64,000 nt of DNA. It comes from a virus. The position numbers and the translations under genes are program-made. Below are positions 6,597-18,924 of the stretch, piece after piece. Positions within the stretch are counted from its first letter, which is position 1, and each line of letters opens with the position of its first letter. The DNA is taken from the IMG/VR virus record IMGVR_UViG_3300027708_000032, positions 32,001 to 96,000 of that record, one strand, 5' to 3'. A model generated the notes under the pieces. The model made no database searches. It was not told the origin of the DNA and was given only the letters and a program-made list of their open reading frames with translations.

Positions 6597-6943
6597 TGGC
6601 TATCAACAAAGTAGATTTAACGGTCTCTCAGATTATTAATGACCTAAACACAGGTTTAACATGGTTCAAGAAAGATGATCTTGGCTATGGTTCTATAGAA
6701 ACTAAGTATGGTGCTAATGCTCCACAGATTATGGCTATTAGAAAGCACCCATCTCTTAAAGATGCTGAGACTACTATTACAATCTTTAACATTATAGACG
6801 ACACTAAGAATGAAAATAGCTCCTCCACAGAATCCTCAGCTACAAGGACAAGTAGTGATATGGAACAACCAAAATTGGATTTGGTATGTGAGCCTACAAA
6901 GGTGGGTTCAAATGAAGCAGCAGACATCTTCGCAAACCTCTAA
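6596..6943 (+). CDS. hypothetical protein
   Basis: ORF track; TAATG coupling to ung. Confidence 0.75.
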   Translation: MAINKVDLTVSQIINDLNTGLTWFKKDDLGYGSIETKYGANAPQIMAIRKHPSLKDAETTITIFNIIDDTKNENSSSTESSATRTSSDMEQPKLDLVCEPTKVGSNEAADIFANL

Positions 6944-6947
6944 TAAT

Positions 6948-8516: not shown

Positions 8517-8532
8517 GAGGTTTTCTTAAGCC

Positions 8533-8574
8533 AATGAACCCAGGGAGTGTAAATGCACTCTCTGGTGTTTCATT
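8533..8574 (+). other. long stem-loop between the AAA+ and VWA genes
   Basis: CCAGGGAGTGT-AAAT-GCACTCTCTGG (8540-8565) extended by AATGAA/TTCATT; no clear U-tract. Confidence 0.6.
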
Positions 8575-8597
8575 AGAAGATCTCGTAAGACAGGCTA

Positions 8598-10136
8598 ATG
8601 AAAAAATTAAACAAAACCAAAATGGCTCAAAAATATAGGAATGTATATACAATTCTTGAAAAAGTAAAGAAGGGTGAGATAGACACCTATTATAAAAAAG
8701 ATGATGGTGGTTTGTTTGGTAAGATAAACTTCTATAAGAAACCTGATTTAGTTAAACCACACATGCATTGGTTAGATGAGCATAAGATAGATGCTATCAT
8801 GGATGCTTATGTAACAGACGGTAAACTAGTTTCAGAGGAGTTTAGTAAGTTTGCAAAAACTGCAGACTATACTAAAAAGATTCCAGATGGTAAGAAACCA
8901 GATGCATCAACTTTTCATCAAAAGTTTTTAGATAACTACAGAAAGTTTCCTAAGCATATGATAAAGGACATTTTCAAGATGTACAACAACCCAATGGAAA
9001 AGTTGGAGTTTGAAGAGCGTACAGACAAGAACAACACTAAGTTTAAGTTCTTAGAGAATGCCAATAATCCAGTTGCTAAGATTATGTCTCAGGGTTCTAA
9101 TCTAAAGTCTGCAATCTTTGCTCGTAATATTCTAGCAAACTACATTATGAGAATGACTATGCTAGACTATGTAGATCCAGATGCATCTGAAAGTATTAAG
9201 AAAGGGCTCAACGGAGCTTCTGACTTTGATACTAAAGATGCTGCTGAAGCTGTAGATGATATGTGTAATAGTACACAAGCTAAGAAAGCTATGGAAGATG
9301 CTATTAATAAAGCTACAGAGCTTTGTAAGAACATGGATGACGCTATGGATGAAGATATACAAGAACAAATGTTTGACAACGCCACAGAACATGGAGAAAA
9401 CTGTTCTGCAGGTGATATTAGTCCAAACTATATCAAACAAGTTACTTCTAGACTAGAAAACATAAAGCTTTCTATGGGATCTGTTAAAGAGAAACTTAAA
9501 AAACTATTGGATAAGTCTGCTAGTTATTTCAGTTCTAGACAACAAGTTACATACGATGACTTGTTTAACTCAGATAACATAGCAGGGCTAGAAGACTATG
9601 AACTACTACATCCAAAGCTTAGAAAGATCTTTGCAGAAGATCTACAAGTGAAAGAAACCAAGTCTATAGGTAAGATAGATGTCTATATAGATATCTCTGG
9701 TTCTATGGACAGTGGTTGTGGTATTGAAAATAGTCAAGGAAATAGTATTACTAGACTAGACTTTTGTAAATCTATGGTAGTTAAACTATCTCAGATGGAC
9801 ATGCTTAATGATGTATATGTATTTAACAACAGGGTAAAGAAGTACAAGAAAGATCCTGTTAGTATTTCTATGCTAGACATAAGCGGTGGTACAACCATCG
9901 ATGCTGCTGTCAAAAGTATAGAAAGAAATGGTGTTAATGCTATTGTTCTCACTGACGCAGAAGATCATTGTAATACATATTCTGAAAAAGCATTCTTCAT
10001 TGGCCTACAAGGAGCTAATTTTAACTACTTCCAAGAAGATGTTATTAAACAGTATTCTGAAAAAGATCAAGTTATTGTATTTGACGGACATACCATTAAG
10101 TATGTAAATGAGAATGGATACGTTGTAAAAGATTAG
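8598..10136 (+). CDS. VWA-domain protein (ViaA-like partner of the MoxR ATPase)
   Basis: MIDAS DISGS, GGT, LTD; directly downstream of the AAA+ gene; start may be 8622. Confidence 0.88.
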   Translation: MKKLNKTKMAQKYRNVYTILEKVKKGEIDTYYKKDDGGLFGKINFYKKPDLVKPHMHWLDEHKIDAIMDAYVTDGKLVSEEFSKFAKTADYTKKIPDGKKPDASTFHQKFLDNYRKFPKHMIKDIFKMYNNPMEKLEFEERTDKNNTKFKFLENANNPVAKIMSQGSNLKSAIFARNILANYIMRMTMLDYVDPDASESIKKGLNGASDFDTKDAAEAVDDMCNSTQAKKAMEDAINKATELCKNMDDAMDEDIQEQMFDNATEHGENCSAGDISPNYIKQVTSRLENIKLSMGSVKEKLKKLLDKSASYFSSRQQVTYDDLFNSDNIAGLEDYELLHPKLRKIFAEDLQVKETKSIGKIDVYIDISGSMDSGCGIENSQGNSITRLDFCKSMVVKLSQMDMLNDVYVFNNRVKKYKKDPVSISMLDISGGTTIDAAVKSIERNGVNAIVLTDAEDHCNTYSEKAFFIGLQGANFNYFQEDVIKQYSEKDQVIVFDGHTIKYVNENGYVVKD

Positions 10137-10161
10137 GGTTTACGGGGAACGGAAACATAAA

Positions 10162-10212
10162 GCCCCTGTAGAAATACAGGGGCCTCTTTCCTATATAAGG
10201 ACTATATAGGAA
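10162..10212. terminator. hairpin pair between convergent blocks
   Basis: GCCCCTGTA-GAAA-TACAGGGGC followed by TTCCTATATA-AGGAC-TATATAGGAA. Confidence 0.75.
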
Positions 10213-10223
10213 TATATAGAGGG

Positions 10224-10346
10224 TTAGCGTCCTTGTCCTACGTATTTCTTAGGTCTAGGGTTATGCTTATTAAAGCTCTTCTTAGCAGATCCTGACTTAC
10301 GTCTACCAAATGTAACCTTTCTAAGATCTCCTGCTGATTTTGCCAT
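10224..10346 (-). CDS. small basic phage peptide (40 aa) ending YVGQGR
   Basis: MAKSAGDLRKVTFGRRKSGSAKKSFNKHNPRPKKYVGQGR; resembles the widespread KKYxGQG(R/K) peptides of aquatic phages; not in the ORF track. Confidence 0.75.
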   Translation of the reverse strand: MAKSAGDLRKVTFGRRKSGSAKKSFNKHNPRPKKYVGQGR

Positions 10347-10351
10347 TATTA

Positions 10352-11023
10352 TTATTTTAAGTCAAACAGAATTATTTCAGATTCTGCTGTAGGTATTATT
10401 TCTATTTTGTTTTCTTCTGTAAAACTTAGTCCATCTCCTTCTATTAACTTATAACCATTAATAGTTAGCTCACCTGATATAACGTATAGATAATAGCTCC
10501 GTGCATTATCTATTTCAAACGTATACTCTTCTGTAAAAATACCAGCTAGAAATCTAGCATCTTGTTTTATTGGTAGTTTCTCAGTGATGTTACAGAACTT
10601 GTTTAGTTTATCTTCTCTAGTAAACTGATGCCACTCATGTATTGGTTCAGTGTCTAATACATTAGGTCTTACCCACAGCTGTAAATACCTATTAGGTGTA
10701 TCTGATGCATTACCTTCTGTATGTTTTATACCACTACCAGCACTCATTCTTTGTACAGCACCAGCAGGTATATCTAAAACAGCACCATGACTATCTGTAT
10801 GTCTACATACACCCTCTACAACATACCCAAAGATTTCCATGTTCTTGTGTTCATGTATTGGAACATGACCACCTGGTTGCACCCTGTCATCATTAATAGT
10901 TTGCAGATCACTAAAGTGAATATACTTTCTATCAAAGTATCCAGGAAAGCTAAATGTTCTAAAAGAACTAATCCAGCTAGCTCTTGGGTTTCCTCTAGTA
11001 TGTGCAGGTCTATGCTTTATCAT
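10352..11023 (-). CDS. pirin family bicupin protein (YhhW-like)
   Basis: FSDL..INDD.V.P, HEHKNMEI, HTDSHG, QRMSAGSGIKHTE, YLQLW. Confidence 0.93.
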   Translation of the reverse strand: MIKHRPAHTRGNPRASWISSFRTFSFPGYFDRKYIHFSDLQTINDDRVQPGGHVPIHEHKNMEIFGYVVEGVCRHTDSHGAVLDIPAGAVQRMSAGSGIKHTEGNASDTPNRYLQLWVRPNVLDTEPIHEWHQFTREDKLNKFCNITEKLPIKQDARFLAGIFTEEYTFEIDNARSYYLYVISGELTINGYKLIEGDGLSFTEENKIEIIPTAESEIILFDLK

Positions 11024-11547
11024 GCCTCATTTACAGATATATCACCACCAATAGAAATAATTATTTTTCTAACATTGTCAGGTTGTAGATTATAAGCTGG
11101 TCTTCTAGCTTGTGAAAGTCTAGACTTTAAAATTCTTTTAATACACACTTTATTATCTTGGTTACCACCAAGTACATGATATGTTGTAGCATCTTCTGCT
11201 ACATATATCCCAACGTGTCCACCACCTTTTCTTGTGAATGTAACAACATCACCAAGCATAGGAGCTGACACCTTTACACCGAAATTATTCCAGTTGAGAG
11301 CACCAAGTGGGTTTAAAACCACAGGTCTTTCAGCTCTTTTCATAACTACAGCTATGTATAACCCACACCATGGAATTTCATCAGCTGTATATATACCACT
11401 AAGTCCTAACTCTTTAGCCCATCCAAGTATAACAGGGTTATGTTTAGAACCTACCACTTCTTGTGTACCATAAAGCTCAATAGCTTTTAGAAGATGCCGT
11501 GGAGCATCTTCTAAAGCTAGCCATTGATATGTTTGGGGTAGTTTCAT
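11020..11547 (-). CDS. TIGR02594-family NlpC/P60-CHAP-like peptidoglycan hydrolase (endolysin)
   Basis: DEIPWCG, GGGHVG, LGGNQ. Confidence 0.88.
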   Translation of the reverse strand: MKLPQTYQWLALEDAPRHLLKAIELYGTQEVVGSKHNPVILGWAKELGLSGIYTADEIPWCGLYIAVVMKRAERPVVLNPLGALNWNNFGVKVSAPMLGDVVTFTRKGGGHVGIYVAEDATTYHVLGGNQDNKVCIKRILKSRLSQARRPAYNLQPDNVRKIIISIGGDISVNEA

Positions 11548-11948
11548 TTCTTATTTAATTTTTTAATTTCTTTTAAGATCTTACTATGATCTTCTATAGC
11601 TTTTCTATCAAGCTTTAAATCTTCTTCAAGTTTCATAAGAAGAACTAATACAGCTTGTAATAACTCTTTAGAATCTTCATCAACCTCAAGATCTTTTTTC
11701 ATATGTTCTCTATCTTTCTCAGCTTGTCTATTACCTGACATAAGAATCATAGGTGTAGCATAAGCTGCTTGTGCTGATAGAAACAAGTTCATTAATATAA
11801 AAGGATATGGATCAAAATCTACAACATTGTCTAAATTAATCAGCATCCATACTATAAGTATCACTGATTGTAAAATTATAAATGTCCAGCTTCCTACAAA
11901 GCTAGCTATGTTGTCAGCTAGATTTATTCCAAATTCTTTTAGTTTCAT
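11544..11948 (-). CDS. DUF1003 membrane protein
   Basis: FVGSWTFI, FDPYPFILMNLFLS.QAAY..P.ILM..NRQ..KDR. Confidence 0.9.
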   Translation of the reverse strand: MKLKEFGINLADNIASFVGSWTFIILQSVILIVWMLINLDNVVDFDPYPFILMNLFLSAQAAYATPMILMSGNRQAEKDREHMKKDLEVDEDSKELLQAVLVLLMKLEEDLKLDRKAIEDHSKILKEIKKLNKK

Positions 11949-13648
11949 TGTACAATAAATTTAACCACTGTACGTTTGTTATTTATAATATAATAGAGAG
12001 CATACACACCACGCTCAAGATTTAAACTAAAGTCTTTGCTGAGTACACCATCCACACTTTTAATTCTTTCACTATACACTGTTCTACCAGTCATATCAAT
12101 AATGTTTACATTAGCATATGCTGTCTTAGTGATGGTACTTTGTACATTAAGTGTAAAGTTTCCATTATTAGGAATAGGATAGAGAGCAACTAAGTCTTTT
12201 TGTAAATCTTCTACACCTATTCTTGTTCCAAATGCACAATTAATATGTGTAAGTGTTTTAGATATTGGTGTACTAAGTGTACCACATAATGTAGTGGCTT
12301 TAGCTGTTAAAGGACCACCTGTGTAACCAGTGTTAAACTGAAGTGTTACAACAGAACTATCTGCATTAGCATATGTAAATGTTGTATTAGCTGGTTTAGT
12401 CCATCTAAAAGCTACCCCCGGAGGAATTGATACATTTGGAACAGCAGAGATTACAGAATATGTAGCACTGTTACCAATACATCCATTCCAAAATCCTGTA
12501 GATGAAGACATATCTAAAGGTTTAGATGGTGCCACTGCTAAACTCTTAGCTGCACTAACTATATTACAAGCACTTTGACATTTAACTGTAATAGCTCCTG
12601 TACTAAAAGTAGAACCAAATCTTATAGTGACAGAAGAACTATCTGTGTTAGCAGCTGTAATTGTGCTACCTACAGGAACTGTCCATCTAAATACACTATT
12701 AGCCACTTGAGAAGAAGTTGGAATAGCTGCACTTGTTGTATATGTAAATGTACTATTAGGACAAGGTGCTACAGAACCAACTATACTAACTGGAGCAGGA
12801 GGTAATGCTCTTGTAAAAGCTGATGACACTGTAGGAATACTTCCTGCATTATTACTTAATGTAAGATATACAGAACCTGCAGCTTTAATTGCAGCTGTAA
12901 TACTATTAGTACCTTGACCACTTGTTGCACTGATTATATAATTACCAGTACCTGATATACTCCAAGCATAATTAACACCACTTTCTACAGGAACAGAGAA
13001 TGTTCTTAAAGTGTCACATAGTCCAGAAACTGGAGTTTGTGTAATCACTTGTGTAGTTGGCACTGTAGCAGTTGGAGGAGGAGCTACATATTTAGTAGAA
13101 CTAAATGTTGTAGTGTATACATAATCCTGAGCTTCATTACCATTATTATTACCAGCCACTGCAGAAACATAAAACTTTACTTTACTTGGAGCTACACTTG
13201 GTGCATTCCATGTAAGTCCTGTGTATGTGTAGTTATTAGCCACTGTAGTAACAGCAGCATTAGCATGGCTTAATTCATATGTTGCACCACCAGCTGTTCC
13301 TTTAATAGAACTGTTAGCGTTAGTGCTAGTCCATGTACCAACAACAGTGTTAGTGGTTGTGTCTACAGCTTTAATAGCATATCCCCACACCTTTCTATCA
13401 GCTGTTCCATGAGCTATCTTAATACTAAAAGGGTAAGCTACACCTGCAGTGAATGTAGTAGGTAGGCCAGTGAGAGTGATGTTACCACCACCAGAGTTAA
13501 GACTATAGTCACCATGACAATTAGTACAGTTTCTTGTAGATCCTGTAGATGTTGGAGCCATAGTGTAACCTGTAGGACAGTTTGGATTGCTTAGTACAAA
13601 AGAAAAAGCAATAATAACAAAACTTAATAAGTACAATACTTTTTTCAT
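11945..13648 (-). CDS. T9SS type A sorting-domain protein (signal peptide, choice-of-anchor V/Reeler-like domain with CxxCH, PKD-like repeats)
   Basis: MKKVLYLLSF signal; CTNCH; FYVSAVAGNNNG...D.VY; repeated Y/FxW Ig-like units; C-terminal LYPIPNNGNF..IIDMTGRTV..GVY..KFIVQ. Confidence 0.88.
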   Translation of the reverse strand: MKKVLYLLSFVIIAFSFVLSNPNCPTGYTMAPTSTGSTRNCTNCHGDYSLNSGGGNITLTGLPTTFTAGVAYPFSIKIAHGTADRKVWGYAIKAVDTTTNTVVGTWTSTNANSSIKGTAGGATYELSHANAAVTTVANNYTYTGLTWNAPSVAPSKVKFYVSAVAGNNNGNEAQDYVYTTTFSSTKYVAPPPTATVPTTQVITQTPVSGLCDTLRTFSVPVESGVNYAWSISGTGNYIISATSGQGTNSITAAIKAAGSVYLTLSNNAGSIPTVSSAFTRALPPAPVSIVGSVAPCPNSTFTYTTSAAIPTSSQVANSVFRWTVPVGSTITAANTDSSSVTIRFGSTFSTGAITVKCQSACNIVSAAKSLAVAPSKPLDMSSSTGFWNGCIGNSATYSVISAVPNVSIPPGVAFRWTKPANTTFTYANADSSVVTLQFNTGYTGGPLTAKATTLCGTLSTPISKTLTHINCAFGTRIGVEDLQKDLVALYPIPNNGNFTLNVQSTITKTAYANVNIIDMTGRTVYSERIKSVDGVLSKDFSLNLERGVYALYYIINNKRTVVKFIVQ

Positions 13649-13649
13649 A

Positions 13650-14108
13650 TTACATTTTTTTTATGTAGAGATCTCTATAATGTAGCATTTCCCCTGTAAG
13701 AATAAATGCTCCTCCAATTAGAACAATATCCCAAAGAGTATTCTTCACTTGGTTCTTTCTATATTTTTTAGAAAGAATATTAAAGTTATTTTCTAAAGGA
13801 GCATATGCACCTTTATACATATTAACTTGTTCTGTAAGGTTCTTAACTTGATCTTTTAAGTTAGTTTCTGAAGATTTGTATAAGTCTATAGCATTCATCT
13901 GATCAAACACTTGTCTTTTTAACAATGCTGATTCAGTGGATGTAACAGATAACAAAGCTTTAGCAGAGTCACCAATTAAAAGATCTGTTTGAATACTTTT
14001 AATGACAGGATAAGGGATGCAAACATCCCTCACCGTGTCAGTATTCTTTTGAGCATTACAAATAAATGCTAAAACTAATAGTAAGATTGTAGTTGTTGAT
14101 TTTTTCAT
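13650..14108 (-). CDS. exported coiled-coil protein with C-terminal TM, spanin-like
   Basis: Signal peptide, long coiled coil, C-terminal hydrophobic helix; lysis context. Confidence 0.55.
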   Translation of the reverse strand: MKKSTTTILLLVLAFICNAQKNTDTVRDVCIPYPVIKSIQTDLLIGDSAKALLSVTSTESALLKRQVFDQMNAIDLYKSSETNLKDQVKNLTEQVNMYKGAYAPLENNFNILSKKYRKNQVKNTLWDIVLIGGAFILTGEMLHYRDLYIKKM

Positions 14109-14113
14109 ATAAA

Positions 14114-14635
14114 TTATTGTTTAAGATTACCTGATAAACTAAAGGTATTACTCCCTTGACATATAACTGTAATAACACCATATTGTGTTTGTGAACGTCT
14201 GTAATTAAATACACTGTGAATAGTCACACCACTAGCAGCTGCAAAAGTAATAGTTCCACCAGCTTGTAACACCTTACAAGTCCAACCATCAGGTAAACCT
14301 GCAGGAAGAGTAATTGTAGAGACACCACCAGTAGTCATACTAACTAGTTTATTAAAATCACCAGTTACTACAGTGTAGATGCTACCTGTTTGTGTATTTC
14401 CAGCAGGGTAAGCTGTAGCTCCACCAACTAAAGCAGCAAGCTGAGTCATAGCTGTAGCTGTCATATAACCATTTGCAGATGTTGTAGCAGCTTGCATAAA
14501 CAAAGTGTCTTTTACAGCACCACCAGTTCTAACTACTCCTAAGGGAGATTTAACAACTGTTGTGTCATAAACCATAGTTTGTGCAGAAGCACCAAAAGAG
14601 AAAAGAATACCAAGAATAAATAATAGTTTTTTCAT
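14114..14635 (-). CDS. signal-peptide protein carrying a tail-fibre-like beta domain
   Basis: MKKLLFILGILFSFGASA-Q signal; C-terminal NTQTG.YT...D..K.V...TITLP...C.V.Q......GVT...QY...SGNL. Confidence 0.65.
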   Translation of the reverse strand: MKKLLFILGILFSFGASAQTMVYDTTVVKSPLGVVRTGGAVKDTLFMQAATTSANGYMTATAMTQLAALVGGATAYPAGNTQTGSIYTVVTGDFNKLVSMTTGGVSTITLPAGLPDGWTCKVLQAGGTITFAAASGVTIHSVFNYRRSQTQYGVITVICQGSNTFSLSGNLKQ

Positions 14636-14659
14636 GTGTTTATTTTTTTTTTAGATTAA

Positions 14660-14821
14660 TTAAACTGTTTTAGCATCTTGTGCTGAAGCTCCCAAGAAGA
14701 ATAAACCAATAGCTTGACATACTTGTCCTACTATTTGTAACACTCCTGTTTGAGAATTTACTAAGTAGCTACCCACTGCAGCTAAAATACCACCGATTGT
14801 TGTTTTCCAATTTGCTTTCAT
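14660..14821 (-). CDS. small 2-TM holin-like protein (53 aa)
   Basis: MKANWKTTIGGILAAVG...IGLFFLGASAQDAKTV (NWKTT..G / G..AxD pattern); not in the ORF track. Confidence 0.75.
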   Translation of the reverse strand: MKANWKTTIGGILAAVGSYLVNSQTGVLQIVGQVCQAIGLFFLGASAQDAKTV

Positions 14822-14825
14822 AATT

Positions 14826-17240
14826 TTAATTTTTAAATTTTAAACGTGATTTAATAATAGAAGAAATATATGTAACTGTAAAGTTAAAGTCATGTGTACA
14901 ACCATTAGCATCTTTAGCTGATATAGTATGATCACCAGAAGTTACACCAGTGAAAGATGTACCTGATTGATAAGCTCCACCATCTAGACTATACGTCTTA
15001 GCTCCTGTACCACCTGTTACACTAACTGTCACAGTAGTAGTCCCACCTTGAACAGTGATAGGAGTGAAAGATACTGTTCCTGTTACATCTGTAGGCTGTG
15101 ACAAAGTAACAGATATATTAGCGGTGGAACCAACAGCATCACTTATATTGTAAGACGTACTTCCTGCTGCTTGTATAAATGTTCCAGTTCCATTATACGG
15201 AGGAACACCACCTGTAGCACCAACTGTAACATTTGTTGTACCATTAAAACATGTAATTGTTCCTGTTGTTACAGTGGCTGTTAATGATGTTACACTAGTT
15301 GATGGTTTGTACAAACCAATAAATGGTGTAATACCAACAATACTATTACCCTCAAAGTCTGTAGTAAAACCTGATATAGCCACGCCATTATTACGAGCAT
15401 AGCTTGTGTCATTTAAATGTAAGTCCCAGTTCTCTGGATATATACTATTAAGAGTATCTTTAAATAAAAGACCACTAGTCATAGCTCTTTCTTTAGTACC
15501 TCTATAATTAAGTGTACCACCAACAGCAGATGCATATCTAGCCCCACCTAAATAATAATAAATATTAGCAGAACGCTTGTATCTATTTCTATCATATAAT
15601 GCTTGTATACCCGTAGTCCAATAAAATATATTATTTCTATTGTCAATCATTGTATCTATGTTAGATCCCCATAGTGTAGCATCCCCTGAATACTGCATAG
15701 TAAATCTAGTTCCACCATAGTTTTGATAAGCAGGATTACTAGGATTACTCCATGTTGTATTAGATACAGGAAGATAAAAACCTGACATACCAGAACATGT
15801 ATAGTTTGATTCTGATCTTGTAGATGGATCACTAAGTGTAAGACTAAGACCATTAATAGCAGTGACTGTTACTGTTTTATATACTATACTAGCAAGATCA
15901 TCATCATCTGTAAACCAAACTGAACCAACGAATATACCTGTGGCATTACTCACTGTAATAACATTAGAACCTGCTGTAGTACTAACTGTGGGTCTTAATG
16001 GATAGCCTGGAGGATTAAATGTATTAGCTATATCTCTACAGAACCACCAAGGTTGTGTTGTACCAGGTCTAAAACCTTGTCCATCTCCATATACATCTTT
16101 ACCAAAACCTAAACCATTCAGTCTATCATTATTATTAGATATAATTACATTATTCCAATGTGATAAATGATGATTATTTCCTTGGAAAGCATCACCTACA
16201 CTACCATGAATATAAGCAAACTGACCACAGTTTATTATTTTATTAAAAGCAAATGTATCATACTGTGAACCTGAGTTACTATCATTTCTATCAAGGTTAC
16301 CAATCTCATATGCTCCACCACAATCTATAATAGTATTATAACAAACTTTAGAGTTGTATAGATTAAATATATCCATAGCTACACCACCTAAACCTTGACA
16401 AGATCCTATTCTACCACTCTTACCCCAAGCTCCTTTAATATAGTTATAACTAATCTCTGTTCTAATAGCTGCAATACCCTCTATAGCACCAGCCATAATA
16501 TCATGTGTACCAGCTGTATCTGCAGAACTCTTGAAGTTAGTGAACCTGTTATTTGTTATCTTAGAATCAACAGTAGCCATTCCTTGTATACCATACATAG
16601 TATTGTTAAACACACAGTTTCTCACTGTAAATCTAGTGACCATGTATTTTCTTCTACTAGTATCTCCATAACTATTTTTAAGACCACCACTTGTACCTTG
16701 TGTCCATTCTCCTAATATCCAACCACCAGAATAACCTGGATTAGCTTTATCAGTTTCAGGTACTCTATAATCATTAGATTGTATACCATCTATGATGATA
16801 TCATGTACGCCTGCAAAATATACTATACCTCTACCTTCTCTTGATATCCATGTACTTACAGGATATGTAGCACTTGGATATAACCAGTTTGGCAAACTTC
16901 CTGTACCATAATTAGTAATTACTATAGGTTGACTAGGTGTACCTGACGGAGCTGTAAAATATGTACCACCATCATTAGCCCATTGCATACTAGAAAACCC
17001 ATTAACAAACCCATTGGCAAATACATCACCTCTTTTAAATGCTATAGTATCACCAGGTAAAAAAGTACTAACTCCACTAGTTACACATCTTTGTAGTTTT
17101 TGTAAAGTCTGCCATGGTGTAGCTTGGTTCTGAGCTTGTGTAGATGTATAGTTGTCATTACCAGTAGAAGAACTGAAATAAAACTTTCTACCAAATACTA
17201 TGGTAGGCAATAAAAATAAAATCAGTAAGAGTTTTTTCAT
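14826..17240 (-). CDS. secreted right-handed beta-helix (pectin lyase-like) protein with C-terminal SprB-like repeats
   Basis: Signal peptide; FYFSSSTGND..PWQTL..PGDTI.FKRGD start of beta-helix; Asn-ladder repeats; TCFNG..GGVPPY and GGTG..YSLDG...FTG...G......DANGC. Confidence 0.8.
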   Translation of the reverse strand: MKKLLLILFLLPTIVFGRKFYFSSSTGNDNYTSTQAQNQATPWQTLQKLQRCVTSGVSTFLPGDTIAFKRGDVFANGFVNGFSSMQWANDGGTYFTAPSGTPSQPIVITNYGTGSLPNWLYPSATYPVSTWISREGRGIVYFAGVHDIIIDGIQSNDYRVPETDKANPGYSGGWILGEWTQGTSGGLKNSYGDTSRRKYMVTRFTVRNCVFNNTMYGIQGMATVDSKITNNRFTNFKSSADTAGTHDIMAGAIEGIAAIRTEISYNYIKGAWGKSGRIGSCQGLGGVAMDIFNLYNSKVCYNTIIDCGGAYEIGNLDRNDSNSGSQYDTFAFNKIINCGQFAYIHGSVGDAFQGNNHHLSHWNNVIISNNNDRLNGLGFGKDVYGDGQGFRPGTTQPWWFCRDIANTFNPPGYPLRPTVSTTAGSNVITVSNATGIFVGSVWFTDDDDLASIVYKTVTVTAINGLSLTLSDPSTRSESNYTCSGMSGFYLPVSNTTWSNPSNPAYQNYGGTRFTMQYSGDATLWGSNIDTMIDNRNNIFYWTTGIQALYDRNRYKRSANIYYYLGGARYASAVGGTLNYRGTKERAMTSGLLFKDTLNSIYPENWDLHLNDTSYARNNGVAISGFTTDFEGNSIVGITPFIGLYKPSTSVTSLTATVTTGTITCFNGTTNVTVGATGGVPPYNGTGTFIQAAGSTSYNISDAVGSTANISVTLSQPTDVTGTVSFTPITVQGGTTTVTVSVTGGTGAKTYSLDGGAYQSGTSFTGVTSGDHTISAKDANGCTHDFNFTVTYISSIIKSRLKFKN

Positions 17241-17243
17241 AGT

Positions 17244-17594
17244 TTAATAGTTATAACGTTGTTTAAAAAATGTATCAAGATCTGATGGGGTAGATGTTCT
17301 AGACTTAGTTATCTTATCACTGTACACTTTCTGAATAACCACTCTAGATGTTCCTACATCTGTAAGTCTGTTTTCTATATCTTCAATTCTAGCATCATAC
17401 TGAGCTGTAAGACTATCTATCTCTATCTGTTTTTTAATAAGTTCTAAGTTATTAGCCTCAAGATCTTCTATTTTCTTTTGTAGTTCTTTAGTGTCTTGTG
17501 GTAATACTACTTTAGGAGTGAGGACATTTACAAGAATAATAACTCCTATTACTATTCCAAGTCCAATTAATGCATACTTTGCGTACTTGTTCAT
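17244..17594 (-). CDS. N-anchored coiled-coil membrane protein (i-spanin-like)
   Basis: N-terminal TM followed by coiled coil; lysis context. Confidence 0.55.
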   Translation of the reverse strand: MNKYAKYALIGLGIVIGVIILVNVLTPKVVLPQDTKELQKKIEDLEANNLELIKKQIEIDSLTAQYDARIEDIENRLTDVGTSRVVIQKVYSDKITKSRTSTPSDLDTFFKQRYNY

Positions 17595-17606
17595 ATATGT
17601 TTGTTT

Positions 17607-18023
17607 TTAATTGTATACTTTTATTTCTATAGTAAATGAAGTATTAGCAACAACATCTATTCTAGATCCTTGATAGTTTGTAGTTAAAAAATAAATTTGA
17701 TCTGTATCAATATAGCCATATTGAATATGTAATGGATACGCAGTTCCATACGAAATAATTGATGTATTTAATACAGAAGTTTTATTAGGAGTAAATAACC
17801 CCTCTCCAAAACATTTAATTAATGGACCAGAACCCTCATAAGTCCAAACAATATTTCCAAGTGTATTTTCTATTACTGTTACTATAGGATCACTTGTACC
17901 ATTTGGTTTTACTAAAGCTGTATACACTTTATAAGAAGGGTTATTTACAGTATGAGCAACAGCTCTTATTCTTCTGTCATTGTAGTTAAGTCTACCAAAT
18001 ATGTCTGTATAGTTAGGATTCAT
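17607..18023 (-). CDS. Bacteroidota-phage structural-type domain protein
   Basis: YKVYTAL...GT..P...V.ENTLG.I.W.Y...FT.NKT...IEIKVY pattern. Confidence 0.6.
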   Translation of the reverse strand: MNPNYTDIFGRLNYNDRRIRAVAHTVNNPSYKVYTALVKPNGTSDPIVTVIENTLGNIVWTYEGSGPLIKCFGEGLFTPNKTSVLNTSIISYGTAYPLHIQYGYIDTDQIYFLTTNYQGSRIDVVANTSFTIEIKVYN

Positions 18024-18339
18024 GCTCTATATATTTTTTAATGTCAAAGATTTCTTCATGCTTAAAATACTTATCATAAGATGACTGCCTTACTGTTTCA
18101 ACATTACCTACTAACTTCTTATTAAACGTAGCCTGCTCTAACATTTTTACATCTTTCTCAAGACTTTCAATCTTAGTCTTGTCTATATTAGACTGAGCTA
18201 ATAAAGCTTTAACATCTGATCTTAGCTCCGAGACATCTCTCCAGATTAACATTGCTAAGATACTAAGTAAAGATGGAAATAAATATACTTTTACAGTATT
18301 TCCAATGTTATGTTTTTGGGAGTTTTGCACAGGTGTCAT
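18013..18339 (-). CDS. membrane protein (TM + coiled coil), holin/antiholin-like
   Basis: LFPSLLSILAMLIW TM followed by coiled coil; first gene of the minus-strand block. Confidence 0.6.
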   Translation of the reverse strand: MTPVQNSQKHNIGNTVKVYLFPSLLSILAMLIWRDVSELRSDVKALLAQSNIDKTKIESLEKDVKMLEQATFNKKLVGNVETVRQSSYDKYFKHEEIFDIKKYIEHES

Positions 18340-18462
18340 TTTTAGACAGATGTTTTTAATTAGTTTTCATATATTTGTTACCCTTTGTGATGAAGTTCAC
18401 AATATAATATACGATTTTTTTACTTCATAAAATATAAACCACCCCTTAAACTTAAAATAGTT
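18340..18462. promoter_or_regulatory. divergent promoter region
   Basis: TATATTTG (-7 box) at 18370-18377 on +; CGTATATTATATTG on - strand ahead of the lysis block. Confidence 0.5.
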
Positions 18463-18924
18463 ATGCCTAGAGACATAAAAGAAGAAAAAGAGTTTACTAA
18501 ACACTTTGTAAAGAGGTTTTATAGAAAGTTTAATTACTATCCTACAGTAATTATAAACAAAGAAAGAGCTAGTGATGATTATAACTTACTCAGTCTGAGT
18601 CAGTTAGAAGAATGCTTTACACCCTTTCTGCCTACATTACGTAATAAGATTATACCATTAAACAGTAGAGAAAGAATAAGAGAAATAACAGAGCTAAGAC
18701 ATGTATTTTGTTTCTTAGCTAGAAGCATGAACTTTAAAGTGACCACTATAGGTAGATATCTAGGTGGTAGAGACCATACCACTGTAGTACACAGTGTAAT
18801 GGTTTTCAAGAACTTATATGAAACAGATGAAGCATTTAGAGAGAAATTTAAACGTATTACTAACCACATAAAACAAAAGTATGAGTCATCAATTATGGAG
18901 CACGTTGATCAAGCATGGAATTAG
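18463..18924 (+). CDS. stand-alone DnaA C-terminal (domain IV) HTH protein
   Basis: R.REI...R....FLAR......TIGRYLGGRDHTTVVHS; no AAA+ domain. Confidence 0.88.
   Translation: MPRDIKEEKEFTKHFVKRFYRKFNYYPTVIINKERASDDYNLLSLSQLEECFTPFLPTLRNKIIPLNSRERIREITELRHVFCFLARSMNFKVTTIGRYLGGRDHTTVVHSVMVFKNLYETDEAFREKFKRITNHIKQKYESSIMEHVDQAWN

What the first reader, a model, noticed from the sequence alone, without database searches (positions are those of the whole stretch)
10352..17594. Phage 'secretome' cassette built into the lysis operon
Seen: four MKK-type Sec signal-peptide genes (beta-helix/SprB 804 aa, tail-domain 173 aa, coiled-coil 152 aa, T9SS cargo 567 aa) are interleaved with a holin, DUF1003, endolysin and pirin. 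Cargo-DUF1003-endolysin-pirin are chained by three consecutive ATGA overlaps (11945/11948, 11544/11547, 11020/11023), and most other gaps are only a few nt, indicating an integrated operon. Established: tailed-phage virion proteins assemble in the cytoplasm and lack signal peptides. Inference: a system that remodels the infected cell surface or matrix through host Sec/T9SS, for receptor masking, adhesion of infected cells to particles or new hosts, or capsule clearing before lysis.
Basis: partly seen in the sequence, partly recalled or inferred. Interest (0 to 1): 0.85.

Follow-up and report, generated by a model that had tools for sequence, protein, structure and literature searches.

The report
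Phage lysis operon carrying exported host-style proteins
A crAss-like freshwater phage packs its cell-bursting genes into one operon with several proteins that carry the host's own export signals, including a sugar-cutting enzyme, a miniature tail-fibre and a surface-display protein, so the phage probably reworks the cell envelope as it lyses; similar cases are already in print.

Summary
Window 10223-18339 (minus strand) is a tight 12-ORF operon in a complete 128-kb crAss-like phage. Independent samples reproduce it, so it is not a chimera.

Four genes have conserved Bacteroidota Sec signal peptides, two with an invariant or nearly invariant Q-rule cleavage site. Their identities:
- **804 aa:** a right-handed beta-helix glycan-active enzyme (Z 24), derived from a Chitinophagaceae T9SS surface-protein family. 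It has no detectable T9SS tag here.
- **173 aa:** an exported tail-fibre-knob protein, modelled as a trimer.
- **152 aa:** an exported, C-terminally anchored coiled-coil protein, more likely part of the lysis apparatus.
- **567 aa:** signal peptide + choice-of-anchor V (invariant CxxCH) + PKD_6 repeats + a type-A T9SS domain. It is the only demonstrable T9SS cargo.

The 175-aa TIGR02594 protein is the only cell-wall hydrolase detected in the 123 proteins scanned. The "holin" is only a candidate.

The beta-helix gene lies 1.1-2.7 kb upstream of non-orthologous lysins in 4 of 14 other phage loci. The cassette's upstream region shares a 12-nt motif with virion-side units.

Phage T9SS cargo and Q-rule proteins are published (Bellas 2020, de Jonge 2019, Matrishin 2023). 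This scan has also met phage T9SS cargo on other DNA at least three times. I rate it a new variant of a known kind, with moderate interest.

The parts
18340..18462 (-). Divergent intergenic region upstream of the cassette, with the 12-nt motif GTATATTATATT at window 18401-18412 (61 nt before the first ATG). Candidate promoter or regulatory site.
   Evidence: 5 exact copies in the genome against 0.19 +/- 0.42 in 300 dinucleotide shuffles (max 2). 4 of the 5 are intergenic, on the minus strand, 16-118 nt upstream of minus-strand genes. The motif is conserved at the same place in L002.
18013..18339 (-). 108-aa protein with an N-terminal TM segment plus coiled coil. Membrane-anchored, function unknown, possibly lysis-related.
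   Evidence: 88% identical in L002; no family hit
17607..18023 (-). 138-aa ORF with no family. A dispensable indel.
   Evidence: Absent from L002. In run X3 it is replaced by 20 nt (joint 17598/18004).
17244..17594 (-). 116-aa protein with an N-terminal TM anchor plus periplasmic coiled coil. i-spanin-like topology.
   Evidence: phrog_739 Rz-like spanin, E 7.7e-4 only; TM at residues 4-26
14826..17240 (-). 804-aa exported right-handed beta-helix carbohydrate-active enzyme, with two C-terminal Ig-like (SprB-repeat-like) domains and no detectable T9SS CTD.
   Evidence: AF2 pLDDT 83.2. VIA Z 24.3 to alginate lyase 6kfn (rmsd 2.6, 269 aligned), 23.6 to Pel9A, 21.8 to RbmB, about 20 to Sf6/CBA120 tailspikes. 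Foldseek matches to GH136/PL6 enzymes and tailspikes. Signal peptide in 109 of 120 homologues. CTD tests negative.
14660..14821 (-). 53-aa small membrane protein (1-2 TM segments). Holin candidate.
   Evidence: 100% identical in L002 and 67-90% in L006/L007/L019, next to or near the beta-helix gene. The nearest named atlas clusters are holin families, at 0.84-0.85 only. No hit in 50,697 phage records.
14114..14635 (-). 173-aa exported 'mini-fibre': Q-rule signal peptide, short neck, and a C-terminal fibre/spike knob domain. Modelled as a homotrimer.
   Evidence: phrog_21510 E 2e-12 and virion/tail C-terminal families. Matches minor tail proteins of 120 phage records. Invariant A18 Q19 T20. Fold matches the Pa223 capsid spike (E 6.4e-8) plus 408 viral models. 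Trimer ipSAE 0.90 against best control 0.00.
13650..14108 (-). 152-aa exported (Q-rule SPI site) coiled-coil protein with a C-terminal hydrophobic anchor. Candidate envelope-spanning lysis component.
   Evidence: 46 homologues, about 106-152 aa apart from two long multi-stretch hits of 521 and 600 aa. Q20 at least 90% conserved, Cys17 not conserved, L43, D47 and S48 invariant. Nearest atlas clusters are all viral. Topology parallels the lipobox + C-terminal-TM ORFs that precede lysins in L011/L012/L014/L015.
11945..13648 (-). 567-aa T9SS type-A cargo: signal peptide + choice-of-anchor V domain (invariant CxxCH) + 3 PKD_6 repeats + Por_Secre_tail CTD.
   Evidence: PF18962 29.7 bits (cut-off 27); TIGR04183 30 bits (cut-off 23); NF041895 64.5 bits (cut-off 42); PKD_6 E 5.8e-15; CxxCH in 34 of 34
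11544..11948 (-). 134-aa DUF1003 membrane protein. Accessory, variable.
   Evidence: PF06210 E 5.5e-30. Absent from L002. Only 5 records in the phage collection.
11020..11547 (-). 175-aa TIGR02594 (CHAP/NlpC-P60-like) cell-wall hydrolase, the probable endolysin. No signal peptide.
   Evidence: TIGR02594 97 bits (cut-off 70.55). phrog_1259 tail-lysozyme C-terminal part, E 5e-26. 52% identical to a Flavobacterium psychrophilum phage protein, with 554 phage records matched. The only peptidoglycan-hydrolase hit in the 123 proteins scanned.
10352..11023 (-). 223-aa pirin (bicupin, YhhW-like). Cytoplasmic, rare in phages.
   Evidence: Pirin E 2.9e-23 and Pirin_C_2 E 7.7e-17. Only 10 'phage' records match, and several are bacterial assemblies by their titles. 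96% identical in L002.
10223..10345 (-). 40-aa highly basic ORF, the last gene of the unit.
   Evidence: 92% identical in L002
10162..10183 (.). GC-rich hairpin (9 bp stem, 6 GC pairs) between the convergent units. Probable bidirectional terminator.

Best explanation
Window 10223-18339 is one transcription unit of a crAss-like phage of a freshwater Bacteroidota host, probably Chitinophagaceae-like. It joins the phage's lysis machinery to a set of host-style exported proteins.

Lysis side: a cytoplasmic TIGR02594 cell-wall hydrolase; a 53-aa membrane protein as holin candidate; and three membrane-anchored coiled-coil proteins (108 aa, 116 aa and the exported 152 aa) as candidate envelope-spanning or outer-membrane-disrupting parts.

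Accessory side:
- An 804-aa beta-helix glycan lyase/hydrolase-type enzyme is sent by Sec into the periplasm. It descends from a host family of T9SS surface proteins but has lost the T9SS tag in this phage clade.
- A 173-aa trimeric mini tail-fibre is exported through signal peptidase I with the Bacteroidota Q-rule.
- A 567-aa choice-of-anchor-V/PKD protein goes on through the host T9SS to the cell surface.
- A DUF1003 membrane protein, a pirin and a 40-aa basic peptide ride along.

Proposed action (inferred, not shown): the unit is expressed together with virion-side genes. The exported proteins fold in the periplasm or are displayed on the surface before the holin fires. They cut, occupy or decorate envelope and matrix glycans. 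Receptors on the dying cell and its debris are then destroyed or masked, and the matrix is loosened for release.

Shown: gene content, signals, folds, linkage and recurrence. Inferred: timing, localisation, substrate and benefit.
For: It is a phage and not a chimera. The contig is 128,065 bp and CheckV rates it 100% complete. It has Crass_capsid, crAss_MUZ and CrAss_Ring_1/2. The same cassette and flanks occur in L002 and in runs X2 and X3.

The operon is tight, with three ATGA overlaps and a terminator hairpin at its end.

The export signals are conserved and follow the Q-rule described for Bacteroidota (PMC5837995, search listing and start of abstract).

The T9SS CTD scores above two curated cut-offs. 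A genome of the candidate host lineage has SprA at 2370 bits.

The beta-helix fold reaches Z 24.3. All 10 bacterial paralogues scanned carry SprB repeats plus Por_Secre_tail, and one array lies beside Bac_transf, Epimerase_2 and Acyl_transf_3 polysaccharide genes.

The mini-fibre has a virion-knob fold. Its trimer model scores 0.90 against a best control of 0.00; in the tool's calibration the mark was reached by 20 of 30 proteins solved as pairs and 1 of 23 solved as single chains, the runs agree in at least 73% of contacts, and pLDDT is at least 83.

No other peptidoglycan hydrolase was found in the 112 other proteins scanned.

Linkage to lysis recurs with non-orthologous lysins: GH19 in L011, Phage_lysozyme in L012 and L015, and Peptidase_M15_4 in L014 lie 1.1-2.7 kb downstream of the beta-helix gene on the same strand, in 4 of 14 beta-helix loci scanned.

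Sub-modules recur. The 53-aa gene accompanies the beta-helix gene in L002, L006, L007 and L019, and a mini-fibre homologue sits directly upstream of it in L023.

A shared 12-nt upstream motif links the cassette with virion-side units.

Contigs from two RNA libraries (X5, X16) lie on parts of the cassette. This is only a weak hint, because DNA can be present in such libraries.
Against: No signal-peptide predictor was available; the calls rest on my heuristic plus conservation.

Only 1 of the 4 exported proteins has a T9SS signal, so 'surface remodelling through T9SS' rests on one gene of unknown activity.

The 804-aa enzyme may stay in the periplasm. Its substrate and catalytic residues are unknown, and a shared beta-helix fold does not show function.

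The mini-fibre shares no detectable sequence with the phage's own virion proteins, so a 'decoy of the phage's own receptor-binding protein' has no sequence support.

The whole cassette is conserved only in the near relative L002. 10 of the 14 other beta-helix loci show no lysin within the range scanned. L006 and L007 hold the big signal-peptide clusters, but their nearest lysin is 7 kb away (L007) or not seen (L006).

DUF1003 and the 138-aa ORF come and go between strains, so not every member is needed.

Timing is inferred from a motif, not from expression data. The host is unknown.
Confidence: 0.55

Rival explanations
1. All or most of the exported proteins are parts of the lysis apparatus itself. 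Bacteroidota phages would then lack lambda-type spanins and breach the outer membrane and surface layers with an exported set: the 152-aa C-anchored coiled coil with the 116-aa N-anchored coiled coil as a spanin equivalent, the beta-helix enzyme cutting a surface or periplasmic glycan layer that would otherwise hold the cell together, and the mini-fibre and CTD protein as helpers.
For: The 152-aa protein has the overall layout of the lipobox + C-terminal-TM ORFs that sit directly before lysins in L011, L012, L014 and L015. No lipoprotein o-spanin is seen in the cassette. The 116-aa protein gives a weak Rz-like hit. The beta-helix gene lies next to lysis genes in 4 of 14 other loci. Homologues of the 152-aa family cluster with viral proteins only.
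Against: The 152-aa family uses a signal-peptidase-I Q-rule site and its Cys17 is not conserved, so it is not a lipoprotein. The beta-helix and 567-aa families come from bacterial surface-protein families and move between unrelated phages without the rest of the cassette. 10 of the 14 beta-helix loci show no nearby lysin. A PKD/choice-of-anchor-V surface protein has no obvious lytic role.
Confidence: 0.2
2. The exported proteins are host-derived cargo ('morons' or auxiliary genes) that benefit the infected or persistently infected cell rather than the lytic step. Examples would be extra polysaccharide degradation for nutrients, adhesion, or competition between strains during the carrier state known for crAss-like phages. 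Their position beside the lysin would be an accident of insertion at a permissive site.
For: Bellas et al. 2020 propose just this for variable T9SS cargo genes in 'Cryophage' (PMC7468147, passages read). Pirin and DUF1003 are host-type genes that are rare in phages. Gene content differs between close strains. Related phages carry varied exported enzymes: chondroitinase-B-type lyase, papain-like protease, Endonuclease_NS, YkuD and OmpA-family proteins.
Against: Translational coupling (ATGA) of the cargo gene, DUF1003, the lysin and pirin argues for co-expression with lysis. An enzyme made minutes before the cell bursts cannot feed that cell. Adjacency to non-orthologous lysins recurs. The carrier-state statement is recalled and comes from no call.
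Confidence: 0.2
3. Assembly chimera or host contamination: a piece of bacterial DNA joined into a phage contig.
For: The 804- and 567-aa proteins have bacterial relatives. DUF1003 and pirin are typical bacterial genes.
Against: GC content is uniform across the region, 0.33-0.35. The same junctions on both sides occur in an independent IMG/VR contig and in contigs of runs from other studies. Homologues of the 804-, 567- and 173-aa proteins lie on many contigs of 65-205 kb.
Confidence: 0.02
4. The four proteins are virion components whose hydrophobic N-termini are not export signals.
For: The 173-aa C-terminal domain and the beta-helix fold are typical of tail fibres and tailspikes.
Against: The N-termini have the MKK + hydrophobic core + small-x-small layout, with an invariant or nearly invariant Gln at +1, a Bacteroidota export hallmark. 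The genes lie apart from the virion module. Bacterial paralogues of the 804-aa protein are T9SS cargo.
Confidence: 0.03

Closest known systems
Phage-encoded T9SS type-A cargo genes of 'Cryophage' (Bellas et al. 2020, Nat Commun, PMC7468147; passages read)
   Same: A phage of a Bacteroidota host encodes proteins with type-A T9SS sorting domains, including glycan-active enzymes. The authors propose hijacking of the host T9SS, with possible roles in competition or superinfection. The genes vary between strains.
   Different: Here only one gene has the tag. It sits in a translationally coupled operon with the lysin. The phage is crAss-like. The glycan-active enzyme has lost its tag. A secreted mini tail-fibre is part of the set. 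Cryophage's cargo was described as flexible islands; no link to lysis appears in the passages I read.
T9SS sorting-domain proteins in crAss-BACON phage lineages (de Jonge et al. 2019, Viruses, PMC6949934; passages read)
   Same: crAss-like or related gut phages carry ORFs with T9SS sorting domains.
   Different: Those lie near the head genes and BACON repeats. No function or lysis link was proposed, and the habitat is the gut rather than a lake.
Q-rule signal-peptide proteins of Porphyromonas gingivalis phages (Matrishin et al. 2023, Microbiome, PMC10367356; passages read)
   Same: Phage genes of unknown function carry signal peptides that expose an N-terminal Gln. This was read as adaptation to the host's general secretion pathway, with potential to modify the outer membrane.
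   Different: Those are temperate phages (prophages). No T9SS tag, fold assignment or linkage to the lysin was reported in the passages I read.
Phage superinfection-exclusion and envelope proteins with export signals (T4 Spackle and Imm, T5 Llp, lambda Bor/Lom); recalled, from no call
   Same: These are phage-encoded proteins sent to the periplasm or outer membrane that change how the infected cell meets other phages. T5 Llp masks the receptor and so protects progeny from debris.
   Different: No sequence or fold relation was tested. Those are single small proteins, not a glycanase + fibre + T9SS cargo set.
Phage tailspike and free depolymerases, and bacterial beta-helix polysaccharide lyases (6kfn, Pel9A 1ru4, RbmB 9ozd; Sf6, HK620 and CBA120 tailspikes)
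   Same: Right-handed beta-helix fold, with Z 20-24 over about 270-350 residues.
   Different: Sequence identity is 8-19%. The window's protein has a Sec signal and Ig-like C-terminal repeats and is not in the virion module. The catalytic class (lyase, hydrolase or epimerase) is undetermined.
Unimolecular spanin (T1 gp11 type; Kongari et al. 2018, PMC6139136, search listing and start of abstract only; details recalled)
   Same: The 152-aa protein is exported at its N-terminus and has a C-terminal hydrophobic anchor, so it could bridge the periplasm. Related phages have true lipobox + C-terminal-TM ORFs before their lysins.
   Different: The 152-aa family has no conserved lipobox cysteine. It has coiled-coil rather than beta-strand character.

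Membership tests
T9SS type-A cargo (567-aa protein) | N-terminal Sec signal peptide | tested here: met
   The heuristic is positive. 50 of 63 homologues are positive, and the misses are mostly truncated or mis-started. No SignalP was available.
T9SS type-A cargo (567-aa protein) | C-terminal sorting domain matching TIGR04183 / PF18962 above the curated cut-off | tested here: met
   PF18962 29.7 bits (cut-off 27) at residues 489-566; TIGR04183 30 bits (cut-off 23)
T9SS type-A cargo (567-aa protein) | Host possesses a T9SS translocon | tested here: inconclusive
   The host is unknown. A Ferruginibacter-type genome that carries chromosomal paralogues of the 804-aa family has SprA at 2370 bits (cut-off 200).
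T9SS type-A cargo (567-aa protein) | Secretion dependent on T9SS, with CTD removal and surface attachment | not testable with these tools
   Needs expression in wild type against T9SS mutants.
T9SS cargo (804-aa protein) | C-terminal sorting domain, type A (PF18962) or type B (PF13585 / TIGR04131) | tested here: not met
   The last 165 residues give no Pfam or NCBIfam hit even at E<=5. hhalign of the C-terminal 90 residues of this clade against type-A CTDs gives probability 0.2%. Bacterial paralogues have the domain in 10 of 10 cases. 9 of the 120 listed homologues carry precomputed PF18962. A different phage subgroup gives E 1.5e-4, probability 52%.
Right-handed beta-helix carbohydrate-active enzymes / phage depolymerases (804-aa protein) | Parallel beta-helix fold | tested here: met
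   AF2 pLDDT 83.2, pTM 0.76. Z 24.3, rmsd 2.6, 269 aligned to 6kfn; 267 chains with Z>=8.
Right-handed beta-helix carbohydrate-active enzymes / phage depolymerases (804-aa protein) | Catalytic residues and activity on a polysaccharide | not tested
   Invariant D, E, K, R, N and H columns exist but were not mapped to a catalytic site.
TIGR02594 / CHAP-like phage cell-wall hydrolase (175-aa protein) | HMM match above the curated cut-off | tested here: met
   97 bits (cut-off 70.55). CHAP is only 22.7 bits (cut-off 26). phrog_1259 E 5e-26.
TIGR02594 / CHAP-like phage cell-wall hydrolase (175-aa protein) | Muralytic activity; role as the endolysin | not testable with these tools
   It is the only peptidoglycan-hydrolase-type hit among the 11 + 112 proteins scanned. 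The 5424-aa protein and ORFs under 60 aa were not scanned.
Holin (53-aa protein) | Small membrane protein with at least one TM segment and a charged C-terminus | tested here: met
   Hydrophobic segments at about 8-21 and 27-45; the C-terminus is ...SAQDAKTV.
Holin (53-aa protein) | Homology to a described holin family, or adjacency to the endolysin | tested here: inconclusive
   No Pfam, PHROG or NCBIfam holin hit. Atlas leads are at 0.84-0.85 only. It lies 3.1 kb from the lysin.
Two-component spanin | i-spanin: N-terminal TM plus periplasmic coiled coil | tested here: inconclusive
   The 116-aa protein has the layout, but phrog_739 scores only E 7.7e-4.
Two-component spanin | o-spanin: small outer-membrane lipoprotein with a lipobox | tested here: not met
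   No ORF of the cassette has a canonical lipobox. Embedded or overlapping small ORFs under 50 aa were not searched systematically.
Unimolecular spanin (152-aa protein) | N-terminal lipoprotein signal | tested here: not met
   Cys17 is not conserved. The cleavage site is an SPI Q-rule site, with Q20 at least 90% conserved.
Unimolecular spanin (152-aa protein) | C-terminal transmembrane anchor | tested here: met
   A conserved C-terminal hydrophobic stretch across 28 aligned homologues.
Phage fibre/spike knob domain (173-aa protein) | Sequence and fold match to the C-terminal domains of virion proteins; trimeric | tested here: met
   PHROG hits down to E 2e-12; 120 phage records; 9ny6 E 6.4e-8; 408 viral models with E<=1e-3. 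The trimer model scores 0.90 against a best control of 0.00; this may reflect likeness to solved fibre trimers.
crAss-like phages (the genome) | crAss-type major capsid, muzzle and tail-ring proteins | tested here: met
   Crass_capsid E 5.8e-31, crAss_MUZ E 2.1e-30, CrAss_Ring_1 E 5.7e-12, CrAss_Ring_2 E 4.2e-18

The most novel reading that the evidence does not exclude
The beta-helix enzyme, the exported trimeric mini-fibre and the T9SS-displayed choice-of-anchor-V/PKD protein form a phage-encoded receptor-destroying and receptor-masking system that is switched on with lysis. It would be the phage counterpart of influenza neuraminidase. The fibre would find the receptor glycan on the producing cell and its debris. 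The enzyme would remove it from the periplasmic side or after release. The surface protein would cover what is left. Progeny would then not be wasted on dead cells, and rivals would be shut out. The recurrence of the beta-helix gene beside non-orthologous lysins, and of large signal-peptide clusters in unrelated lake phages, would make this a general late function of Bacteroidota phages. It would be a fourth class of lysis-module gene, besides holin, lysin and spanin.
Probability: 0.2. Interest if true: 0.8.

Novelty: new variant of a known kind. Interest (0 to 1): 0.5.

Why it matters
Phages of Bacteroidota, including the crAss-like group, are abundant and poorly understood, and their lysis systems are almost uncharacterised. 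This cassette makes three things testable.

- It shows a phage using two host export routes (Sec with the Bacteroidota Q-rule, and T9SS) in the same transcription unit as its lysin. That points to envelope work done from outside the cytoplasm just before or at lysis.
- It contains a virion-type fibre knob turned into an exported, probably trimeric protein. That is a ready-made probe for the phage's or host's surface glycan and a candidate receptor mask.
- It links a large family with no Pfam match (167 database hits) to Chitinophagaceae T9SS surface proteins that sit next to polysaccharide-synthesis genes. That gives a lead to both host and substrate.

If the receptor-destroying reading is right, it would explain how such phages avoid loss on debris. 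It would also supply new enzymes against Bacteroidota capsules and biofilms.

Tried and rejected
**Annotated relatives.** blastn of the cassette and tblastn of the 804-, 567- and 53-aa proteins found nothing in the 50,697 phage records, so no annotated relative could be used.

**Decoy of the phage's own receptor-binding protein.** BLASTP of the cassette proteins and an HMM of the 173-aa family against the phage's own 129 ORFs gave nothing below E 0.09, so I dropped the idea for lack of support.

**Ely174.** This characterised Flavobacterium phage endolysin (PMC12628812, passages read) is aligned by its authors with T7 lysozyme. I could not tie it to the TIGR02594 family, so it is not used as evidence.

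**Hypervariable patch in the 804-aa protein.** A sliding-identity scan against 8 close homologues shows divergence spread along the helix, with no single hotspot. Two contig joints inside the gene (15760/16698 in X2 and 16109/16701 in X3) have short sides of 21 and 31 letters and were not interpreted.

**Promoters and terminators.** The sigma-70 promoter scan is not above shuffles (48 found against 41 +/- 6.8) and is uninformative for this host. Terminator-like sites number 10 against 2.7 +/- 1.7 expected; only the 10162-10183 hairpin is used.

**RNA evidence.** Contigs of X5 and X16 cover only parts of the cassette (18 and 9 of 30 bins). They cannot show strand, level or transcript boundaries, so the uncovered parts are not interpreted.

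**Generality of the clusters.** Signal-peptide clusters of 7 genes occur only in L006 and L007. The other 13 loci analysed have 0-3. Before that count I left out L005 (same contig as L002) and L017, L018 and L022 (same length and match as L016). At E<=1e-3, Pfam found no Por_Secre_tail in the 23 signal-peptide proteins of those 13 loci.

**Literature.** Searches found no paper describing exported proteins built into a crAss-like lysis operon. Supplementary files were not read and may hold relevant gene tables, notably Supplementary Data 4 of PMC10367356.

**Protein-atlas look-ups.** These gave only unnamed viral clusters.

Full report
**What is there.** The window is bases 32001-96000 of a 128,065-bp IMG/VR viral contig that CheckV rates as complete. 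Pfam finds a crAss-type major capsid protein, muzzle protein and tail-ring proteins 1 and 2 elsewhere in the genome, so this is a crAss-like phage.

Between two plus-strand blocks of replication genes lies a minus-strand island, window 10223-18339. One block holds a MoxR-type ATPase and a 512-aa protein. The other holds a DnaA-type HTH protein, a DnaB-type helicase and a primase. The island's 12 ORFs are separated by -11, 12, 3, 4, 24, 5, 1, -4, -4, -4 and 6 nt. The island ends at a GC-rich hairpin at 10162-10183 that faces both convergent units.

It is not a chimera:
- GC content is flat across the region.
- An independent IMG/VR contig (L002) has the same genes with the same phage flanks on both sides, at 82-100% protein identity.
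- Contigs of an independent run (X2) tile 9836-18621 without a difference.
- A strain about 96% identical (X3) covers 11450-16520 in one contig and joins 16561-17598 to 18004-18800.

**The four signal-peptide genes.** No signal-peptide predictor was at hand, so I used a simple n-region/h-region rule. It flags 5 of 11 cassette ORFs and 7 of 118 others (Fisher p = 0.001). With the 116-aa signal-anchor and one probable mis-start removed by hand, the count is 4 of 11 against 6 of 118 (p = 0.005). None of the flagged ORFs lies in the virion module. The other flagged ORFs cluster in an early region upstream of the window.

Conservation is the stronger argument:
- 109 of 120 homologues of the 804-aa protein and 50 of 63 of the 567-aa protein pass the same rule. 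The misses are mostly truncated or mis-started.
- In the 804-aa family the predicted cut falls just before a conserved RKFYFSS.
- In all 28 aligned members of the 173-aa family, A18, Q19 and T20 are invariant.
- In the 152-aa family Q20 is kept in at least 90% of 28 members.

A glutamine at +1 is the 'Q-rule' of Bacteroidota signal peptidase I substrates (PMC5837995, listing and start of abstract). These are therefore real, host-adapted export signals.

**What the exported proteins are.**

*804 aa.* It has no Pfam, PHROG or NCBIfam family apart from a weak PHROG hit on the C-terminal repeats. An AlphaFold model built on 38 homologues (pLDDT 83.2) is a right-handed beta-helix followed by two Ig-like domains. 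The helix aligns with:
- alginate lyase 6kfn (Z 24.3, rmsd 2.6, 269 residues);
- pectate lyase Pel9A (Z 23.6);
- the Vibrio matrix lyase RbmB (Z 21.8);
- the Sf6 and CBA120 tailspikes (Z about 20).

Foldseek also lists GH136 glycosidases, PL6 lyases, phage depolymerases and, for the Ig-like part, repeats of the Aureispira GhpA protein.

In bacterial genomes the family is found only in Chitinophagaceae, Ferruginibacter, Chitinophagales or unclassified Bacteroidota assemblies, plus one MAG labelled Streptomyces (15 loci). There it forms tandem arrays of 1236-1629-aa paralogues. All 10 that I scanned carry SprB repeats and a Por_Secre_tail domain. One array lies beside an initiating sugar transferase, a UDP-GlcNAc 2-epimerase and an acyltransferase.

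The phage gene is thus a shortened copy of a host T9SS surface-protein family. In this phage clade the sorting domain is gone:
- The last 165 residues give no HMM hit even at E<=5.
- Profile comparison with type-A CTDs gives probability 0.2%.
- A different phage subgroup keeps a CTD-like tail (E 1.5e-4, probability 52%).

*173 aa.* Residues 71-172 match the C-terminal domains of virion and minor tail proteins: PHROG hits down to E 2e-12 and 120 phage records, mostly Gordonia and roseobacter phages. The model (pLDDT above 90 in this domain) matches the Pa223 capsid spike, CBA120 TSP4, T4 gp9/gp10 and 408 predicted viral structures.

A homotrimer of the mature part scores 0.90 against a best control of 0.00. 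In the tool's calibration the mark was reached by 20 of 30 proteins solved as pairs and 1 of 23 solved as single chains. The runs agree in at least 73% of contacts and pLDDT is at least 83. Similar fibre trimers are solved, so this shows likeness rather than proof. It is a tail-fibre tip fitted with an export signal.

*152 aa.* Its 46 homologues are about 106-152 aa long, apart from two long multi-stretch hits of 521 and 600 aa. They share:
- the Q-rule site;
- a conserved Cys-x-Pro a few residues into the mature chain;
- an invariant L43, D47 and S48 within a DLxxGDSAK-like motif;
- a coiled coil;
- a C-terminal hydrophobic anchor.

*567 aa.* It consists of a signal peptide, a choice-of-anchor V domain (64.5 bits, cut-off 42), three PKD_6 repeats and a type-A T9SS domain above both curated cut-offs. 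The choice-of-anchor V domain has a CxxCH motif invariant in 34 of 34 homologues and is the best conserved part.

**The lysis side.** The 175-aa protein is a TIGR02594 family member (97 bits, cut-off 70.55). It has weak CHAP/NlpC-P60 similarity and a strong match to the C-terminal part of a 'baseplate hub and tail lysozyme' PHROG. It is 52% identical to a small protein of Flavobacterium psychrophilum phages. No other peptidoglycan-hydrolase domain appears in the 112 other proteins scanned; the 5424-aa protein and ORFs under 60 aa were not scanned. It is therefore the probable endolysin.

The 'holin' is not established. The 53-aa membrane protein is the best candidate. It is 100% conserved in L002 and 67-90% in three distant phages, but its only link to holin families is a feature-similarity lead at 0.84-0.85.

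The 116-aa protein has an i-spanin layout and a weak Rz-like hit, E 7.7e-4. No lipoprotein o-spanin is seen.

In four other phages the ORF directly before the lysin has a canonical lipobox, a C-terminal TM and a basic tail, and three of these ORFs are detectably related (E 2e-15 and 5e-9; the L014 ORF gives only weak matches, E 0.15 or worse). That is the unimolecular-spanin layout. The 152-aa protein has the same overall topology without the lipobox. I therefore regard it as more likely a lysis or envelope-spanning part than 'secretome'.

**Is the link to lysis more than an accident?** The complete cassette is shared only with the near relative L002. Even there DUF1003 and the 138-aa ORF are missing, and a 329-aa ORF lies between lysin and pirin. 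The 138-aa ORF is also absent from strain X3.

The single genes travel widely. 19 viral loci carry the beta-helix family, and three viral loci, one of them the near relative L002, carry the 567-aa family. Two patterns recur.

- In 4 of the 14 beta-helix loci scanned, a lysin of a different family lies 1.1-2.7 kb downstream on the same strand: GH19, Phage_lysozyme twice and Peptidase_M15_4. In L007 a GH108 lysin lies 7 kb upstream. The other loci show none in range.
- Some phages carry much larger runs of signal-peptide genes around the beta-helix gene, 7 each in L006 and L007. These include CHU_C type-B T9SS domains, a chondroitinase-B-type lyase (E 1.5e-59), a YkuD transpeptidase, OmpA/PD40 proteins, an outer-membrane barrel and a papain-like lipoprotein. 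In the distant L023 a 192-aa homologue of the mini-fibre, again with an ...SAQ site, sits directly upstream of the beta-helix gene.

**Timing.** The 123-nt region upstream of the cassette holds GTATATTATATT. The genome has 5 exact copies against 0.19 +/- 0.42 in 300 dinucleotide shuffles. Four of the five lie in the 6% of the genome that is intergenic, all on the minus strand, 16-118 nt upstream of minus-strand genes. A one-mismatch copy lies 24 nt upstream of a fibre-like gene. The motif is kept at the same place in L002. This suggests that the cassette shares regulation with virion-side units, but it is not expression data. Contigs from two RNA libraries lie on parts of the cassette. That is only a weak hint, because DNA can be present in such libraries.

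**Mechanism.** My best reading, at confidence 0.55, is an operon expressed with the late genes.
- The lysin waits in the cytoplasm for a holin.
- Meanwhile the host Sec machinery exports the beta-helix enzyme, the trimeric mini-fibre and the 152-aa anchor protein.
- The host T9SS carries the choice-of-anchor-V/PKD protein to the surface. A T9SS is present in the candidate host lineage, with SprA at 2370 bits.
- Export lets proteins of extracellular type fold, through disulfides and pyroglutamate, before the cell opens.

Their likely targets are envelope or matrix glycans, judged from the fold of the enzyme, the polysaccharide-gene neighbourhood of its bacterial relatives and the fibre-knob domain. 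The likely benefits are destruction or masking of receptors on the producing cell and its debris, exclusion of other phages, and loosening of capsule or matrix at release. These last steps are inference.

The rivals are:
- the exported proteins are the lysis apparatus itself (0.2);
- they are host-benefit cargo placed there by chance (0.2);
- they are virion proteins (0.03);
- the region is a chimera (0.02).

**Comparison with what is known.** Phage-encoded T9SS cargo was reported for 'Cryophage', where it was called a unique occurrence, with the same hijacking idea (PMC7468147, passages). T9SS sorting-domain ORFs were noted in crAss-BACON lineages (PMC6949934, passages). Q-rule signal peptides on phage proteins were noted in P. 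gingivalis phages (PMC10367356, passages). This scan has also recorded phage T9SS cargo on other DNA at least three times, once beside lysis genes.

New here are:
- the translational coupling of cargo, lysin and pirin in a crAss-like phage;
- the exported trimeric fibre knob;
- the tracing of the beta-helix family to Chitinophagaceae T9SS proteins, with loss of the tag in this clade;
- the recurrence next to non-orthologous lysins;
- the shared upstream motif.

I file it as a new variant of a known kind, interest 0.5. Four literature searches found no description of such a cassette in a crAss-like lysis operon. Supplementary tables were not read.

Noticed in passing
window 35232-51506 (-): A single 5424-aa ORF, flanked by ORFs of 1603, 1036, 1478 and 1540 aa, in the virion-side block of this crAss-like phage. 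It was too long for the family scan and was not examined.
   Followed up: no
window 10223-10345 (-): A 40-aa, very basic ORF directly after pirin and before the terminator hairpin. It is 92% identical in L002 and has no family.
   Followed up: partly
window 13049-13591 (-), residues 20-200 of the 567-aa protein: The choice-of-anchor V (Reeler-like) domain has a CxxCH motif, the classical haem-c attachment pattern, invariant in 34 of 34 homologues. It is the most conserved part of the protein. A haem- or metal-binding surface protein made by a phage would be unusual.
   Followed up: partly
genome 20001-26087 (upstream of the window; loci L040/L041): A second cluster of plus-strand genes with signal peptides or lipoboxes. 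It includes a 154-aa protein with a ...YAQ site that resembles small outer-membrane barrel proteins in L003 and L006, a DUF4846 lipoprotein (E 1e-50), and several small TM proteins.
   Followed up: partly
genome 285-1223 (-) (locus L040): A 312-aa protein matching LCIB_C_CA, the limiting-CO2-inducible beta-carbonic-anhydrase-like family (E 9.3e-40), beside the capsid genes of the phage.
   Followed up: no
L011:419-4459, L012:4474-9822, L014:5992-9777: Giant signal-peptide proteins (1346, 1782 and 1261 aa) directly upstream of the beta-helix gene in three other phages. They have no significant Pfam family (one sub-threshold DUF6572 hit in L011) and end in ...YQIDITYRAQ or ...WKINLTYKAQ. Whether these are outer-membrane proteins was not tested.
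   Followed up: no
L010:14601-15242 (-) and L010:15758-17328: A phage locus with an exported Endonuclease_NS (E 4.3e-36) and two L,D-transpeptidase-like proteins (PG_binding_1 + Tlde1/YkuD, and YkuD_2 at E 1.9e-42) near the beta-helix gene.
   Followed up: no
L002:10718-11707: In the near relative, a 329-aa ORF with no Pfam match sits between lysin and pirin, while DUF1003 is absent. Its N-terminus resembles that of the LCIB-like ORF at genome 285-1223; this was judged by eye and not tested.
   Followed up: no
window 6810-10136 (+): A MoxR-type AAA ATPase (bpMoxR E 1.1e-24) is followed by a 512-aa protein that converges on the cassette terminator. It looks like a MoxR/vWA-type pair inside the replication block.
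   Followed up: no
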